Shown piece by piece: positions 1,668-8,426 of a stretch of DNA of 55,581 nucleotides (position 1 is its first letter; the number at the start of each line of letters is the position of its first letter). The stretch comes from a virus (taxonomy: Duplodnaviria; Caudoviricetes), in the IMG/VR virus record IMGVR_UViG_3300032893_000059, positions 1 through 55,581 of that record. The stretch is one strand, 5' to 3'. The translations under genes were made by a program, and so were the position numbers. The notes under the pieces are model-generated. The model searched no databases and was not told where the DNA came from. It saw only the letters and a list, made by a program, of their open reading frames with translations.

Positions 1668-2437
1668 CACGCTACCCTCCGAGACAGGTGCCAGCCTCGG
1701 CTGCGACATGGAGTCGGTTCCCGAAAGTCCGGCGGTAGGAGATGACGCCAGAGCTTCCCGCGGCAGATCATCGAGATGAGCGAATTGCTCACCTTGCGAG
1801 CTCGAGCAATGTCGACAGTCTTGGCGCCGGCCGCTCGGTCAGCTCGAATGGCTAGTATTTCTAGGTCGGTGAACTTTGCGTTCGTATTCTTGGAACCGAA
1901 CGTTGATCTGCCCATCCGGACCGTGTCTTCGCAGTTCTCCTTCTGCGTTCCGGGCGTGAGATGAGTAGGTCGACAGCAGGGAGCATTTCCGCAGACGACG
2001 TGCCGGATCGCCTTGCCTGCCGGGATGGGTCCGAACGCCAGAGCCCACGCAACCCGGTGGGCCTGCGACTCGACTTGGCCATCTCTCGATCTGACGCAGC
2101 AACTGCCATAACCAGAACGCCTGGTAGGCCCTGTCCACGGCCAGCATCCATCCGTGTCGGAACAGTCGACACGGGCGCAGAATGCTTTCGCCGCCTCAAT
2201 GCCGAATATCTCAAGCCCAGCCTGGGAGCATAGGCTCAGAAGGCCGATGCTCTGTCCGGATTGAGCTATGGGCACAGAAACAAGGCAGTCTGCATCGCCC
2301 ATGGTGGAAACGCAATCTCGCGCCTCGGAGGTAACCGCCACGTCGACCTCTGGATATGCATCACTGTCTACATGAACAACACCAGGGGAGGGAGCGGCGG
2401 CTACCTTCGATGCGCGAAAACGGTTGGGGTGGTTCAT
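1667..2437 (-). CDS. HNH endonuclease with C-terminal HTH
   Basis: CWPWTG...GYG...AHRVAW...HVVCGNAPCCRPTHL..GT..EN..D; start uncertain. Confidence 0.85.
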   Translation of the reverse strand: MNHPNRFRASKVAAAPSPGVVHVDSDAYPEVDVAVTSEARDCVSTMGDADCLVSVPIAQSGQSIGLLSLCSQAGLEIFGIEAAKAFCARVDCSDTDGCWPWTGPTRRSGYGSCCVRSRDGQVESQAHRVAWALAFGPIPAGKAIRHVVCGNAPCCRPTHLTPGTQKENCEDTVRMGRSTFGSKNTNAKFTDLEILAIRADRAAGAKTVDIARARKVSNSLISMICRGKLWRHLLPPDFREPTPCRSRGWHLSRRVA

Positions 2438-2512: not shown

Positions 2513-3568
2513 CTAAGGCCTTTCTTTTCTGATCCGCAACTCCGCTCGAATGAGGTCCAGGTTGTAGGCGAGGTAATGGCGTGTGTCCATGGTGGGTTTT
2601 CTGGCGCCTTGAAACGTTCCAGCGTCGTCAAATTCTGGCGCTCCCTCGTGGCCTTGAGCCTGTCGGATGTACTCGAGCGACCAGCCGCGTGCAGCGAGCA
2701 TGCTCGCGAAGCTGCGGCGCAAATCTTGGTCTGGCTTTACCCGGGCGAGGCCGCAGCGATCGCAAGCGGCCGTGAATGTCTTGGACAGGCACCAGAGGTG
2801 CCCGACCACGAGAGAATCAGCAGATCCGGGAGAGCGCAGGATGGTCTGCGCGGCTTCGCGCGCCTCGGGTTCCATGGGGAACCAATTGGGCTGACAGTGC
2901 TTGTTCTTGTGGTTGTGGCGCAAGTATCTTCCACGCCAGAGTTCGGCGCCGTTTTCGTCGCACCAGACATAGTCGGGCTCGATCCACCGTCTCGTCATGC
3001 GCTGGATGTCTCGGCTGTGGAAACCGTACCAGAAGGCGGCGTCGGCGAAGATCCGGAAGCGCTCGGGAAGAGCAAGCCTCAGCTCGCGGAACTCGGCGAC
3101 AGTAACAACGCGCTTGCCTCTGTTGCTGTCATTGGGAAGCCGAGGCATGTCGGGCACGTCGTCGCGACGGTACCGCTGCCCATCGCACTCCACCTTGCGA
3201 GCTGCTGCATATTTGAGAGCGGCGAGCATGAAGGTGTAGCGTTTTTTGACGGTGGTCCACATCAGCCCGTAGCCAGGCGGCCCCCAAGCACGCGCTACCG
3301 CCTCCAGTGTTTCAAGCGAGATCGCGGTCAGCTTCGTCGACTCGCCGAATGCCTGCAGCAACCACGAAATGCGCGTCTGGTAGTCCGTTACCGTGTCGTC
3401 GGCGATCTCTCCGATCAAGCGCCGCAGGTGGGAGTCCAGCGCTTCCTTGAGTGTCCCGCGTGGCCAGAAGCCGAGCTCCAACTGCAGGGGAGCCAGGCCC
3501 CGGTCACGCCCAAATGGGCCAACCTTCGCGAAATCAGGCTTACGACGTACGGCTAAGCGAGACGACAT
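2513..3568 (-). CDS. int: Tyrosine recombinase/integrase with divergent catalytic boxes
   Basis: QDLRRSFASMLAARG.SLEYIRQAQGH...TRHY; core-binding-like N-terminal half; AGGAG RBS before ATG 3568. Confidence 0.85.
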   Translation of the reverse strand: MSSRLAVRRKPDFAKVGPFGRDRGLAPLQLELGFWPRGTLKEALDSHLRRLIGEIADDTVTDYQTRISWLLQAFGESTKLTAISLETLEAVARAWGPPGYGLMWTTVKKRYTFMLAALKYAAARKVECDGQRYRRDDVPDMPRLPNDSNRGKRVVTVAEFRELRLALPERFRIFADAAFWYGFHSRDIQRMTRRWIEPDYVWCDENGAELWRGRYLRHNHKNKHCQPNWFPMEPEAREAAQTILRSPGSADSLVVGHLWCLSKTFTAACDRCGLARVKPDQDLRRSFASMLAARGWSLEYIRQAQGHEGAPEFDDAGTFQGARKPTMDTRHYLAYNLDLIRAELRIRKERP

Positions 3569-3640
3569 CAGTTGCTCCTGTTGTCTTTCGGCGGGACGCA
3601 CCGCTGTAGCGCCCACGCTGGCCGCCTCCCCGCTGGTCTG

Positions 3641-5903: not shown

Positions 5904-6262
5904 GTCGCGTACTCCCTTCGCCTGCCAGCCGCCACGAGCTCGGCCTTCCTTGTGATGAGGGCCAGTCGCCCGCTCGCCCCGCGCTTGCGCCAGTTTCCAA
6001 CCGAGAACGCCGTCGGCGGCGGCTCGTTGCCGGTGCGGATGCCGAGCGCCTTGAGCTGCTGGCACTGCTCACAGGGCGGATCCTGTTTGCACGGGCAGGC
6101 CGCCACAGCATCGCCGCGAGCCTTCTTGGCAAGGCAGCCCTCGCAGCGGTCATCGAAGGTCTTGGGCAAGCTCGGGTCACGTCCGCCGCGGCAGGCTGCG
6201 CACAGGTTTGCCTTGAGCCCCTTGCGGACGCGGCTGGGATGGGAGCTGCGGGGAGGCGTCAG
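5900..6262 (-). CDS. Cys-rich (three CxxC) hypothetical protein, possible CTG start
   Basis: CAAC, CEGC and CEQC; the frame exactly fills the gap between its neighbours. Confidence 0.45.
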   Translation of the reverse strand: MTPPRSSHPSRVRKGLKANLCAACRGGRDPSLPKTFDDRCEGCLAKKARGDAVAACPCKQDPPCEQCQQLKALGIRTGNEPPPTAFSVGNWRKRGASGRLALITRKAELVAAGRRREYAT

Positions 6263-7860
6263 ATGCCCGCCTTGCTGCCCTTGGGCTTCGGCACTTGCTC
6301 GCCTGGCATGACGATCGTCAGCCGGCCCGGCTTCTTGGGTTCCGGCAGCGGCTCCTCGGCTCCCTCGTCGTCGGCATCGATACCGACGATCCGAAGCTGT
6401 CCCGCCTCGACCACGGTGCCGATGATCTGCCAGCCGCCCCGCTTGGCCCGGCGAATGAACTGCTCGCGCAACGCCGGGTCCATCTGCTCCATCTTGTCGA
6501 CCCGCAGGAGCTTGCCGTCGGGCGCGATGCGCTTCACCAGGTCGACGCACAGCTCGGTCTTCTCGCTCTCGGATAGCAGCTTGAACACGTGGCCGTCCAG
6601 CGCGATGTCGTCGTCCACGAAGGTTAGCCCCGGGATCATGTTGGCCCGCTTCGCCAGTTCGGCTGGGGCGTCGTGGTCCAGACGCTTGACGATGTCGTCG
6701 AGCCGCTTGGCCTCGGCCTTGGCGGATTCCAGCTCGTCGGCCAGGGCGCCGGCGGAGGCCTGCGCATCGTGGGCGGCGCGGGCGGAGCGGATGAGGTCGG
6801 CCTTGGCCTGGGCGGTCGTGACCGCCTGGGTGGCGGCGGCAACTTCCTCGGCAGTAGGGGCCGCGATGGCGGTTTCGGTGAGGGTGGCTTCGAGCTCGCG
6901 GGCCTGCGCCCGGAGCGCGGCAGACTTGGCGTCTGACTTCGCGTGCTCGGCCTGCTGCAACTTGGCCCGCTCGACTGCTCGATCCGCCTGTTCGAACGCA
7001 CGTTCGGCTTCCTTCAGCGCGGCCCAAGCGGCATCCTTCGAGGCCAACAAACCGTCCATCACCGCCGCAGGAACGGGAGCGTGCCCGGCCGCGTCCTCTG
7101 CGTCTGCTTCTGCCCGAAGGTCGCTAATCTTCGCCCGCGTCCGCTCGGTACGTCTTGCCACGGACTCGGCCTGCTGGCGGCGCTGCTCCAGTGCTTCCAC
7201 CTGCCACTGCGCCTCCCGAACCGGCGCGTCCTCTTCACCCGGCAGCAGCACCACCACGCCCACGTGCTCGGGCTTCGCTAGCCCGTCGGCCTTGTCCTGA
7301 GCGAGCTTGAGCGCGTGCTTGGCGTCCTCCACCGCGGTGTTGGCCTTGGTTCGCAGGGCGTAGTAGTGGCCGTGCATCTCCGCCACCACCTCGAGCCCGT
7401 GCTTGCCCTCCTCGATCTCCCAAGCCTCGCCGGTCCAGTTCCTGGCGTCTTCTTCGGTCGCGGTCGCCGGCATGGCGGCCAACACCTTGCGGCGGCGCTC
7501 CGCCGATGTGTCGGACGCGAGCTTCAGCGGGTCGATGAGATCGGGGAAGCAGGCGTCGAGCTTCGCCTGCGGGCTGCCGGGGCCGAGGCCGTCGACCTTG
7601 ACCGACTTGGTGCCGTTGCGACGAACGATCGTTTCCACCGTGGCGGTGTCGAACTTCAGAAGCACCCGCCAACGGTCGGCGTCGTCGCAGATGTACTCGG
7701 GGCCAAATCCGCGCGACTTGAGAGCCGCATAGATGCCGTTGGCGAGACTGGTCTTGCCGGACTTGCTCTCGCCGATGAATTGGACGCCAGCGGTTCCGAC
7801 GGAAAACTTGGCGCTCTGGACGCCCATGAACTGCTCGATCTCTACATCCCTCAGCTTCAT
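6259..7860 (-). CDS. SMC/Rad50-like coiled-coil ABC ATPase
   Basis: Walker A GESKSGKTS, long coiled coil, LSESEK signature, Walker B LLRVDKMEQMD. Confidence 0.85.
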   Translation of the reverse strand: MKLRDVEIEQFMGVQSAKFSVGTAGVQFIGESKSGKTSLANGIYAALKSRGFGPEYICDDADRWRVLLKFDTATVETIVRRNGTKSVKVDGLGPGSPQAKLDACFPDLIDPLKLASDTSAERRRKVLAAMPATATEEDARNWTGEAWEIEEGKHGLEVVAEMHGHYYALRTKANTAVEDAKHALKLAQDKADGLAKPEHVGVVVLLPGEEDAPVREAQWQVEALEQRRQQAESVARRTERTRAKISDLRAEADAEDAAGHAPVPAAVMDGLLASKDAAWAALKEAERAFEQADRAVERAKLQQAEHAKSDAKSAALRAQARELEATLTETAIAAPTAEEVAAATQAVTTAQAKADLIRSARAAHDAQASAGALADELESAKAEAKRLDDIVKRLDHDAPAELAKRANMIPGLTFVDDDIALDGHVFKLLSESEKTELCVDLVKRIAPDGKLLRVDKMEQMDPALREQFIRRAKRGGWQIIGTVVEAGQLRIVGIDADDEGAEEPLPEPKKPGRLTIVMPGEQVPKPKGSKAGI

Positions 7861-7885
7861 TGTGATCTCCTCGACTTTCGTTTCG

Positions 7886-7940
7886 TGGAGCCGCCGGGAA
7901 TTGAACCCGGTCCACGTTGCTCACCGTGAGCTACGGACCC
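7886..7940 (-). ncRNA. tRNA-like RNA lacking an anticodon arm
   Basis: GGGTCCG-TA-GCTC acggt GAGC-aacgtgga-CCGGG TTCAATT CCCGG-CGGCTCC-A gives acceptor, D and T arms only. Confidence 0.65.
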
Positions 7941-8036
7941 AAAGCGCCGGCCGCTCATCGGTGCGGCGCCCGTGACTGCAAACCGGCAGTCACCACGGTG
8001 GCGGGACCATCCCGCCTGAATCGTTGGCGCAGCAGG

Positions 8037-8426
8037 TCAGAAGGGCACGTCGTCGTCCTCGGGTCGCGGCGATTGTCCGCGCCAGCCGCTGTCGCTCGCC
8101 TGTCCTCCGCCCGTTCCCGGCATCTCCTGCTGCTTCGACGGCGCTTCCGCCACCACTTCGATCCTCTCCCCCACGATGTCGGCGTAGACCTTGCCGTGCC
8201 ATTCGCGCCCGCCCAGCCTGCCCGTCACCTCGACGACAGACCCGACAGCGAGCCCGCGGGCTTGGTCGGCAACTCGGCCGAAGAACTTGACGGGAACTAA
8301 CTGCGGGTAGCTGCCCTCGACCTGCAGCACCAGCGTGACGATGTCCTTGCCGTTCTTGGTGGTGTAGACCTCCTTTCGGTCGACACGTCCGCGGCCATCG
8401 AAGGCGAATCCGCTCTTTGTTCCCAT
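8037..8426 (-). CDS. ssb: Single-stranded DNA-binding protein
   Basis: OB-fold (GSVVEVTGRL..REW) and acidic tail EDDDVPF. Confidence 0.9.
   Translation of the reverse strand: MGTKSGFAFDGRGRVDRKEVYTTKNGKDIVTLVLQVEGSYPQLVPVKFFGRVADQARGLAVGSVVEVTGRLGGREWHGKVYADIVGERIEVVAEAPSKQQEMPGTGGGQASDSGWRGQSPRPEDDDVPF

What the first reader, a model, noticed from the sequence alone, without database searches (positions are those of the whole stretch)
7886..7940. Anticodon-less tRNA-like RNA carrying alanine identity elements
Seen: between ssb and the SMC-like ATPase, a 55-nt sequence has an acceptor stem GGGTCCG/CGGCTCC (one mismatch), T8-A9, a D arm GCTC/GAGC and a canonical T arm CCGGG-TTCAATT-CCCGG. Only 8 nt lie where the anticodon and variable arms belong. 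It has G1-C72, G2-C71, G3.U70 and A73. Established: these are the AlaRS determinants, and AlaRS does not read the anticodon (as with the tmRNA tRNA-like domain). Inference: an aminoacylatable tRNA mimic, such as a decoy for anti-phage tRNases, SmpB or EF-Tu, or an RNase P/Z mRNA-processing signal. The 3' half could also serve as an attP core matching host ssrA or tRNA-Ala.
Basis: partly seen in the sequence, partly recalled or inferred. Interest (0 to 1): 0.75.

Follow-up and report, generated by a model that had tools for sequence, protein, structure and literature searches.

The report
Anticodon-less tRNA/tmRNA mimic in phage
A temperate phage from wetland samples carries a 55-base element shaped like a tRNA without its codon-reading arm, whose amino-acid-accepting end copies the bacterial ribosome-rescue RNA (tmRNA); similar stripped-down tRNAs occur in other phages, but this copy is a lone, slightly flawed one and its job is untested.

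Summary
On the minus strand (7940 to 7886) lies a 55-nt tRNA-shaped element between an SSB-like gene and a 533-aa ATPase gene. It has an acceptor stem (6 of 7 pairs, G3.U70, A73), U8-A9, a GCUC/GAGC hairpin, an 8-nt linker and a perfect T arm. ARAGORN and Rfam at gathering score miss it.

It is a hybrid. The 5' half is tRNA-like. The 3' 26 nt are identical to the 3' ends of actinobacterial tmRNA genes, not to their tRNA-Ala. It lacks the D-loop analogue kept by the published TLD-only tmRNA of mycobacteriophage DS6A and by nine other phage mini-tmRNAs.

Anticodon-arm-less tRNA look-alikes form a discrete class in viral contigs: 32 hits against 0 for a backward control, with covarying acceptor stems. 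This scan has noted such RNAs before on other DNA.

This copy is a singleton. No relative with the locus could be fetched and no RNA data exist. It also has a U4.C69 mismatch and a 5-nt D loop.

Best reading (0.45): a co-transcribed RNA, excised by RNase P, that does not decode and mimics the acceptor half of tmRNA/tRNA-Ala. Rivals: processing signal only, decaying relic, attP core. New variant of a known kind; interest moderate.

The parts
7886..7940 (-). 55-nt anticodon-arm-less tRNA/tmRNA-like element: acceptor stem, U8 A9, D-type hairpin, 8-nt linker, T arm, A73
   Evidence: Sequence. Rfam tmRNA 24.2 bits and mascRNA 23.6 bits in E-value mode. Own model R1 50.1 bits, but the element is in R1's training set and R1 also matches full tRNAs. 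The tRNA-like fold is -20.1 kcal/mol against an MFE of -20.6.
7885..7910 (-). 26-nt block (T stem, T loop, acceptor 3' strand, A73, C74) identical to the 3' ends of actinobacterial tmRNA genes
   Evidence: Exact 26-mer in L119, L131, L132 and L147, 4 of 80 genome loci, with no extension on either side. Across those loci, 64 of 81 matches to the looser 3'-half pattern lie in ARAGORN tmRNA genes and 1 in a tRNA-Ala. The tRNA-Ala(UGC) genes of the same genomes have other T arms.
7919..7931 (-). tRNA-type D hairpin: GCUC/GAGC stem and a 5-nt loop holding GG; it can also close as 5 bp with a 3-nt loop
   Evidence: Every class member aligned in A2 has the same stem, which the search pattern required.
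7941..8036 (-). 96-nt upstream spacer with three GC-rich hairpins. The last is followed by UUU and abuts G1, so position -1 is U.
   Evidence: Fold of the 176-nt intergenic region (z -1.73, not significant). No consensus promoter or terminator found.
7861..7885 (-). 25-nt trailer after A73. It begins CGA (no encoded CCA) and holds the GAGGAG ribosome-binding site (7872-7867) of the ATPase gene.
   Evidence: Sequence.
8037..8426 (-). SSB-like OB-fold protein gene with an acidic C-terminal tail, directly downstream of an Erf recombinase gene (9207-8431)
   Evidence: Pfam DUF3127 37 bits, SSB 19 bits, ERF 43.2 bits. PHROG SSB and Erf.
6259..7860 (-). 533-aa SMC/AAA_15-like ATPase gene, first gene after the element
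   Evidence: Translation. phrog_1499 E 9.3e-39. 22 homologues besides the query itself (23 rows), some with PF13175, PF13476 or PF02463.
2513..3616 (-). Tyrosine integrase gene, which marks the phage as temperate; it lies 4.3 kb from the element
   Evidence: phrog_1 integrase E 9.3e-17. PF00589 15.6 bits, below cut-off.

Best explanation
The element is a genuine tRNA-shaped RNA module. It joins a tRNA-type D hairpin to the acceptor stem and T arm of the host-type tmRNA.

Inferred course of events:
1. It is transcribed with the Erf-SSB-ATPase early operon.
2. Host RNase P cuts at G1; position -1 is U.
3. Host 3' enzymes trim to A73 and add CCA.
4. The released 55-58-nt RNA cannot decode.
5. In the cell it stands in for the acceptor half of tmRNA/tRNA-Ala. 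It is probably charged, perhaps weakly, by AlaRS through G3.U70/A73.
6. It then competes for proteins that read that half: AlaRS, EF-Tu, the CCA enzyme, perhaps SmpB or defence enzymes that attack tRNA acceptor ends.
7. As a side effect, its excision separates the ssb message from the ATPase message.

Shown: the anatomy, the identity with tmRNA 3' ends, and the existence of a class of such RNAs in phages. Inferred: transcription, processing, charging and competition.
For: 1. Anatomy and statistics.

2. The 26-nt identity with tmRNA gene 3' ends, while tRNA-Ala genes of the same bacteria differ.

3. A published precedent. [quoted passage not shown] DS6A integrates at a tRNA-Lys gene, so its TLD is not its attP (PMC10865867, passage).

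4. Class evidence from viral contigs:
- A pattern for D arm, short linker and T arm found 32 loci; the same pattern read backwards found 0.
- The acceptor strands were not in the pattern, yet 23 of 32 pair at 6 or more of 7 positions, against about 1.3% expected.
- All 7 acceptor pairs covary in the 28-row alignment.
- Linker lengths peak at 8-9 nt (26 loci) with a trough of 2-4 loci at each length from 10 to 15 nt. Complete loss of the arm is therefore a discrete design; this element's linker is 8 nt.
- A pattern fixing only U70 C71 C72 A73 found 8 loci. All 8 begin GGG, and 3 of 8 encode CCA.

5. The element sits in a 176-nt spacer within an otherwise tight module. The Erf stop codon and the SSB start codon are 4 nt apart.
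Against: - It is a singleton. No homologous locus with its upstream region could be fetched, so there is no conservation or covariation evidence for this copy.
- The only reachable relative of the ATPase (L035, 42% identity, a complete 80-kb phage) has no spacer and no element.
- U4.C69 disrupts a listed alanine determinant next to G3.U70. No other alanine-type member has an acceptor mismatch in its best register except L020.
- The D loop is 5 nt, against 7-8 nt elsewhere.
- Rfam scores are low: 24.2 bits on the tmRNA model, and less on the tRNA model. Five of the 8 other alanine-type members score 39-56 bits on the tRNA model, and tested mini-tmRNAs score 38.5-60.3 on the tmRNA model.
- It lacks the D-loop analogue. 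From recall of the SmpB-TLD crystal structures, not checked here, that is where SmpB binds.
- Folding energies are not better than shuffles (z -0.75 and -1.73).
- No promoter, SmpB gene or partner protein was found in the phage.
Confidence: 0.45

Rival explanations
1. Cis-acting punctuation only. The tRNA-like shape serves as an RNase P (and 3' enzyme) cutting mark that separates the ssb and ATPase messages. The upstream mRNA is left ending in hairpins and the ATPase mRNA gets a 25-nt leader. The excised piece has no further role.
For: - It sits inside an operon on the coding strand, 25 nt before the ATPase start codon, with three hairpins just upstream and U at -1.
- No promoter of its own was found.
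- The acceptor stem plus T arm is the minimal RNase P substrate (established knowledge, recalled).
- Most class members have non-alanine acceptor stems, so the class as a whole does not depend on alanine identity.
- Rfam's second-best match is mascRNA, a eukaryotic processing module.
Against: - A cutting mark has no need for 26-nt identity with tmRNA or for G3.U70/A73.
- The distant relative L035 expresses the same gene pair with overlapping ORFs and no mark.
- Encoded CCA occurs in 7-8 of 23 well-paired class members, against about 0.4 expected by chance. That fits an acceptor function, though it also helps bacterial RNase P.
Confidence: 0.2
2. Decaying relic. The element is a remnant of a former phage tRNA-Ala or tmRNA-derived gene, or of a recombination with host ssrA. 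It has lost its anticodon arm and part of its D loop and is drifting without function.
For: - The U4.C69 mismatch, the 5-nt D loop, the sub-threshold Rfam scores and the lack of encoded CCA.
- It is absent from L035.
- No relative was found in 2.9 million viral contigs with three element-based patterns.
- A second reduced tRNA-like stretch, T-arm-less and Arg(UCU)-like, lies at 2212-2275 in the same genome. It hints at eroding tRNA genes.
Against: - All 5 T-stem pairs, the T-loop consensus, 4 of 4 D-stem pairs and 6 of 7 acceptor pairs are intact.
- The 26-nt block shows no change relative to tmRNA genes.
- The arm loss matches the discrete 8-9-nt linker class, not a random deletion size.
- A plain deletion inside a tmRNA gene cannot give the tRNA-type D arm.
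Confidence: 0.25
3. attP core. The 3' half is the phage attachment site for integration into the 3' end of the host tmRNA gene, and the identity exists to rebuild ssrA after integration.
For: - The phage has a tyrosine integrase and a repressor-like HTH protein.
- The identity block covers exactly T arm to 3' end.
- tmRNA genes are known integration sites, with cores that include the 3' half of the gene (PMC10865867, passage).
- 16 of 81 genome matches to the 3'-half pattern lie outside any called tmRNA gene. Some look like duplicated 3' ends; this was not followed up.
Against: - The site lies 4.3 kb and five ORFs from the integrase, in the middle of the Erf-SSB-ATPase operon, which integration would split.
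- 26 bp is below the usual 30-45 bp core.
- An attP needs neither the complementary 5' acceptor strand nor a canonical D arm; the chance of those is about 1.3e-6.
- A tRNA-Arg-like stretch directly beside the integrase is a better attP candidate.
Confidence: 0.07

Closest known systems
TLD-only (CDS-less) tmRNA of Mycobacterium phage DS6A (JN698994, 28478-28560; Hudson, Lau and Williams 2014, PMC4131195)
   Same: - Phage-borne and lacking an mRNA-like domain.
- G3.U70 acceptor stem with the same 3' strand and A73.
- tmRNA-type T arm.
- No complete encoded CCA.
   Different: - DS6A is 83 nt. It keeps the tmRNA D-loop analogue and a P2 stub and scores 43.2 bits on RF00023.
- This element is 55 nt. 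It has U8-A9 plus a tRNA-type GCUC/GAGC hairpin instead and scores 24.2 bits.
- My class model matches only DS6A's T arm.
Phage mini-tmRNAs in IMG/VR contigs (L193-L201), also noted earlier by this scan
   Same: Same acceptor stem type (GGGNCCG with CGGCTCCA) and T loop, and no tag-coding part.
   Different: - They are 67-81 nt.
- The 5 of 9 tested score 38.5-60.3 bits on RF00023 because they keep the GG...UUCGAC-type segment and a P2-like helix.
- None has a tRNA D arm.
Alanine-type anticodon-arm-less mini-tRNAs of uncultured phages (L017, L020, L031, L064-L068). I found no publication on them.
   Same: Same layout: 7-bp acceptor with G1-C72, G2-C71, G3.U70 and A73; U8-A9; GCUC/GAGC D stem; 8-10-nt linker; T arm.
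   Different: - They have 7-nt D loops and mostly perfect stems.
- Rfam tRNA scores are 39-56 bits for 5 of 8.
- Their T arms are not tmRNA-identical.
- 3 of 8 encode CCA.
- L031, L067 and L068 (and the non-alanine member L008) sit beside a small cysteine-rich basic protein gene that this phage lacks.
mascRNA/menRNA (Rfam RF01684) and organellar tRNA-like processing marks
   Same: A tRNA-like acceptor/T-arm module inside a longer transcript with a reduced anticodon region. It gives the second-best Rfam match, 23.6 bits.
   Different: It is a eukaryotic family with a gathering score of 42.5. The resemblance is one of shape only, and no cleavage has been shown here.
Synthetic minihelix-Ala (discussed in PMC9976931)
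   Same: An acceptor-T-arm RNA with G3.U70/A73 is a substrate of AlaRS without any anticodon (passages).
   Different: Minihelix-Ala is a laboratory construct. This element is natural, keeps a D hairpin and has a 4:69 mismatch.

Membership tests
TLD-only / CDS-less tmRNA (DS6A type) | Acceptor stem with G3.U70 and discriminator A73 | tested here: met
   There is one U4.C69 mismatch, which DS6A and L193-L201 lack.
TLD-only / CDS-less tmRNA (DS6A type) | tmRNA-type T arm and 3' end | tested here: met
   26 of 26 nt identical to the tmRNA gene ends in L119, L131, L132 and L147.
TLD-only / CDS-less tmRNA (DS6A type) | D-loop analogue (GG...UUCGAC-type segment) followed by a P2 helix that opens with non-canonical G.A pairs | tested here: not met
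   The cmscan alignment skips this segment. It is present in DS6A and in L196, L194, L193, L195 and L199.
TLD-only / CDS-less tmRNA (DS6A type) | Rfam RF00023 score near or above the gathering score of 47 bits | tested here: not met
   24.2 bits. DS6A scores 43.2 and others 38.5-60.3.
TLD-only / CDS-less tmRNA (DS6A type) | Binds SmpB or inhibits trans-translation | not testable with these tools
   No SmpB gene in the phage. Binding would need an experiment.
Canonical tRNA-Ala (RF00005) | Complete cloverleaf with anticodon arm | tested here: not met
   Only 8 nt lie between the D and T stems. ARAGORN makes no call, and there is no gathering-score match.
Canonical tRNA-Ala (RF00005) | Bacterial alanine identity set A73, G2-C71, G3.U70, G4-C69, G20 (PMC9976931 Table 1) | tested here: inconclusive
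   Three of five are present. 4:69 is U.C, and the base after GG in the D loop is U.
Anticodon-arm-less tRNA-like RNAs of phages (class defined here) | 7-bp acceptor, U8-A9, 4-bp D stem, short linker (peak 8-9 nt), 5-bp T stem with a TTCRANT loop | tested here: met
   The linker is 8 nt and the acceptor pairs at 6 of 7.
Anticodon-arm-less tRNA-like RNAs of phages (class defined here) | D loop of 7-8 nt able to form the tRNA elbow | tested here: not met
   5 nt here; 7-8 nt in the other 27 aligned rows.
Anticodon-arm-less tRNA-like RNAs of phages (class defined here) | Neighbouring small cysteine-rich basic protein gene (a subset only) | tested here: not met
   Found beside 4 of 30 class loci. 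The best tblastn hit in the window is E 0.03.
attP core for integration into ssrA | Shares a 30-45-bp core with the host gene's 3' end | tested here: inconclusive
   26 bp are exact to tmRNA genes of three genera, but the host is unknown.
attP core for integration into ssrA | Lies beside the integrase gene | tested here: not met
   The integrase is at 2513-3616, 4.3 kb away.

The most novel reading that the evidence does not exclude
Phages carry a broad, undescribed class of anticodon-arm-less tRNA look-alikes that act in trans as stand-ins for the acceptor half of tRNAs. This element would be a hybrid member, in which a tRNA D arm replaces the SmpB-binding part of a tmRNA tRNA-like domain. 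The result would be an alanine-accepting RNA that engages AlaRS and EF-Tu, or acceptor-end-directed defence enzymes, while escaping SmpB. That would let the phage tune host ribosome rescue, or blunt attacks on tRNA ends, without decoding anything.
Probability: 0.2. Interest if true: 0.75.

Novelty: new variant of a known kind. Interest (0 to 1): 0.45.

Why it matters
If the RNA is made and charged, it would be a natural counterpart of the laboratory minihelix-Ala. It would also be a second design, beside the DS6A type, by which phages copy the tRNA-like end of tmRNA.

Because the part thought to bind SmpB has been swapped for a tRNA D arm, the element gives a ready-made test of which partners such mimics are aimed at: AlaRS and EF-Tu, or SmpB.

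More broadly, the class data here point to an unannotated kind of phage RNA gene that standard tRNA finders skip. There were 32 hits against 0 for the control, the linker-length peak is discrete, and ARAGORN called none of the 32 elements.

The weight of this particular copy is limited, because it is a singleton with two structural flaws.

Tried and rejected
Searches for relatives of the locus:
- Nucleotide search of cultured phages: no match.
- ATPase in viral contigs: none as a single protein. As a profile, only L035 at 42% identity, which has no element.
- ATPase profile in metagenome contigs: 28 loci. The two close ones (L036, L037) begin inside the gene, so they have no upstream DNA.
- ATPase profile in genome contigs: none.
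- ATPase and TerL by tblastn in cultured phages: nothing above 30% identity.
- TerL relatives L069 and L070 are fragments without the ATPase region.
- Contigs of homologues P0003-P0018 could not be fetched.

Sequencing runs: three wetland DNA runs hold the stretch. Their contigs are identical over the element, so they give no variants. No RNA holder is listed.

Model R1: it is not specific for the armless form. It matched ordinary tRNAs in 151 of 151 Actinomycetota genomes, and the matches I read in the list spanned about 71-75 nt. Its 50.1 bits for the element therefore carries little weight. Seven genomes in that tally are flagged unpublished (G009, G026, G056, G090, G096, G128, G156). Only this one statement rests partly on them.

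Folding: z-scores are not significant. No consensus promoter or terminator was found.

A 58-nt reading of L196 was a register error. The real RNA is an 81-nt mini-tmRNA.

Conservation in the related trio L023/L027/L030: the 2 changes in 59 nt both preserve pairing. The flanks vary just as little (12 and 11 of 400 columns), so the test is uninformative.

A TLD-like refold of the D region with tandem G.A pairs was tried by eye only. It competes with the stronger D hairpin and was dropped.

Literature: no search turned up a natural anticodon-arm-less phage tRNA with a D arm. Mao et al. 2009 was not seen; it is cited only through PMC4131195. Supplements were not opened.

Full report
**What is there.** The window is one whole IMG/VR virus record: 55,581 bases, linear, 89% complete by CheckV. 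It is a tailed phage with terminase, portal, tail sheath and baseplate genes. It also has a tyrosine integrase (phrog_1, E 9.3e-17) and a repressor-like HTH protein, so it is probably temperate. Nearly all genes lie on the minus strand.

The finding sits on that strand in a 176-nt spacer. Upstream is an SSB-like gene (8426-8037; DUF3127 37 bits, PHROG SSB, acidic tail). Downstream is a 533-aa ATPase gene (7860-6259). An Erf recombinase gene lies just before the SSB gene.

The minus strand of 7886-7940 reads GGGTCCGTAGCTCACGGTGAGCAACGTGGACCGGGTTCAATTCCCGGCGGCTCCA.
- a 7-position acceptor stem with G1-C72, G2-C71, G3.U70 and one mismatch (U4.C69)
- U8 and A9
- a four-pair GCUC/GAGC hairpin
- eight bases where the anticodon arm and variable loop belong
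- a five-pair T stem with a TTCAATT loop
- A73

The trailer begins CGA, so CCA is not encoded. The ATPase ribosome-binding site and start codon follow within 25 nt. Position -1 is U, directly after a GC-rich hairpin.

**Is it more than chance?**
- ARAGORN finds only a tRNA-Met elsewhere, and Rfam at gathering score finds only that tRNA.
- In E-value mode the best match is the tmRNA model with both ends aligned and the middle skipped: 24.2 bits (gathering score 47), E 6.2e-8 for the 501-nt search. Next is mascRNA at 23.6 bits.
- With the T arm and 3' strand held fixed, 2.6% of 300,000 random upstream flanks of this composition give some acceptor plus hairpin layout. Shape alone is therefore weak evidence.
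- Requiring the canonical tRNA words TAGCTC...GAGC in place lowers the estimate to about 1.3e-6.
- The tRNA-like fold is 0.5 kcal/mol above the minimum free energy. Neither the element nor the spacer folds better than shuffles.

**Where the two halves come from.** I searched the 3' half as a pattern with the outer T-stem pairs left free. Of the 81 matches, 64 lie in ARAGORN tmRNA genes, 16 in no called gene and 1 in a tRNA-Ala(GGC).

The exact 26 nt from the first T-stem base to C74 occur in 4 of the 80 loci. All four are tmRNA gene ends, from Corynebacterium (two), Tsukamurella and Aeriscardovia. The identity does not extend on either side. The tRNA-Ala(UGC) genes of the same Corynebacterium and Tsukamurella genomes have different T arms.

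The 5' half is not tmRNA-like. Those tmRNAs continue after the acceptor strand with a GG...TTTCGAC-type segment and a long P2 helix. This element continues with U8-A9 and a tRNA D hairpin. It is thus a hybrid: a tRNA-type 5' core on a tmRNA-type acceptor and T arm. A plain deletion within a tmRNA gene cannot produce it. A deletion within a tRNA-Ala that carried such a T arm cannot be excluded.

[quoted passage not shown] They note that a similar molecule strongly inhibits tmRNA, perhaps by titrating SmpB, citing Mao et al. 2009, which I did not see. PMC11915505 (passage) repeats this and adds CDS-less plastid tmRNAs of about 65 bp.

I fetched DS6A. Its RNA is 83 nt, keeps the D-loop analogue and a P2 stub, and scores 43.2 bits on the tmRNA model. 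A pattern for the same acceptor stem and T loop, with 18-40 nt between them, found nine more viral contigs. The five I scored reach 38.5-60.3 bits for the same reason, and one of them (L196) is really 81 nt.

This element lacks that segment and scores 24.2 bits. It therefore works like, but is not a regular member of, the TLD-only group.

**A class of armless tRNA look-alikes.** A pattern for G7-U8-A9, the D arm, 5-12 free bases and the T-arm core found 32 viral contigs. The same pattern read backwards found none.
- The acceptor strands were not specified, yet 23 of 32 pair at 6 or more of 7 positions; about 1.3% is expected.
- ARAGORN called none of the 32 elements. 8 of the 32 loci hold ordinary tRNA genes nearby and 24 hold none in the DNA fetched.
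- In a 28-row alignment, all seven acceptor pairs and two T-stem pairs show changes on both sides. 98.4% of cells are paired, and 0 of 500 shuffles reach this. Caveats: I had kept only rows with well-paired acceptors, and the D stem and three T pairs were fixed by the pattern.
- Widening the gap to 13-20 gave 64 more loci. Linker lengths then show a peak at 8-9 nt (26 loci), a trough of 2-4 loci at each length from 10 to 15, and a rise at 16-18 (46 loci) where a 3-5-pair mini-hairpin replaces the anticodon arm. Complete removal of the arm is thus a discrete form and not the tail of random deletions. My searches looked only for such forms.
- A pattern fixing only U70, C71, C72 and A73 found 8 loci. 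All 8 begin GGG. 7 of 8 pair at all seven positions, L020 pairs at six in a shifted register, and 3 of 8 encode CCA.
- Rfam's tRNA model gives 39-56 bits to 5 of these 8, and its tmRNA model gives 32.3 bits to one. Two get no match at E 0.1 or better.
- Four of 30 class loci have a neighbouring gene for a 58-78-aa basic, cysteine-rich protein. This window has none.

Earlier notes of this scan describe the same kinds of RNA on other DNA. They gave me the DS6A lead and the partner-protein lead, and I checked both here. None of my six literature searches found a paper on natural phage tRNAs of this armless form.

**What speaks against this copy being functional.**
- It is the only one of its exact kind in the collections I could search.
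- Its D loop has 5 nt, against 7-8 nt in all 27 other aligned rows. It can close into a 5-pair hairpin with a 3-nt loop, which may not form a tRNA elbow.
- U4.C69 sits next to G3.U70 and replaces G4-C69. The identity review lists G4-C69 with A73, G2-C71, G3.U70 and G20 as the bacterial alanine set (PMC9976931, passages).
- The only reachable relative of the ATPase gene (L035, 42% identity, a complete phage) has overlapping ORFs and no element.
- Three wetland DNA runs hold the stretch unchanged. No RNA run is listed, so expression is untested.

**attP.** Actinophage attP and attB sites usually share 30-45 bp that include the 3' half of a tRNA or tmRNA gene (PMC10865867, passage), and the identity block here has the right position. 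However:
- It is 26 bp long.
- It lies 4.3 kb from the integrase, inside an operon.
- It is accompanied by a complementary 5' strand and a D arm that an attP does not need.
- A tRNA-Arg(UCU)-like stretch without a T arm lies right beside the integrase (2212-2275, tRNA model 24.2 bits, E 0.037). That is a better, though unproven, candidate.

**Verdict.** My confidences are:
- 0.45: a co-transcribed, RNase P-excised, non-decoding mimic of the acceptor half of tmRNA/tRNA-Ala
- 0.20: processing mark only
- 0.25: decaying relic
- 0.07: attP core

Transcription, cleavage, charging and any partner are inferred, not shown. The statements on RNase P substrate rules and on where SmpB contacts the tmRNA domain are recalled textbook knowledge, not tool results.

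Noticed in passing
window 2212-2275 (-): A second reduced tRNA-like stretch. It has an acceptor stem (6 of 7 pairs), a GCUC/GAGC D arm and an anticodon arm with loop CUUCUGA (Arg UCU), but only about 11 nt where the variable loop and T arm belong. Rfam tRNA score is 24.2 bits, E 0.037 for a 1.85-kb search. It lies directly after the integrase gene and perhaps inside the N-terminal part of the HNH endonuclease ORF. It could be an attP remnant, a pseudogene or chance.
   Followed up: partly
L008 9492-9722, L031 6034-6213, L067 799-1035, L068 55-231: A family of 58-78-aa proteins with a basic N-terminus and a cysteine-rich C-terminus ending GTC(M/Q)CS. Its genes lie directly beside anticodon-arm-less mini-tRNAs in 4 of 30 class loci. 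This re-finds a gene pair noted earlier by this scan. There is no homologue in this window.
   Followed up: partly
L232-L295 (viral contigs): 46 tRNA-like elements in which the anticodon arm is replaced by a 3-5-pair mini-hairpin (linker 16-18 nt), some with G3.U70 and A73 (for example L238, L257). This is a second reduced architecture beside the fully armless one.
   Followed up: no
L196 2315-2395 (+): An 81-nt TLD-only mini-tmRNA in an uncultured phage that scores 60.3 bits on Rfam tmRNA, above the gathering score of 47 despite having no mRNA-like domain. L194 scores 47.2.
   Followed up: partly
L065 720-786 and 1335-1436 (+): Sub-threshold YrlA (Y RNA-like) matches of 43.1 and 29 bits (gathering score 69). 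They lie in the same tRNA cluster as an alanine-type armless mini-tRNA.
   Followed up: no
L076, L095, L097 and others (genome contigs): 16 of 81 matches to the tmRNA 3'-half pattern lie outside any called tmRNA gene. Some look like duplicated tmRNA 3' ends, as left at the junctions of elements integrated into ssrA.
   Followed up: no
window 7941-8036 (-): Three consecutive GC-rich hairpins fill the 96 nt between the SSB stop codon and the element. The last ends in UUU right at the element's first base. No relatives were available to test whether they belong to the RNA.
   Followed up: partly
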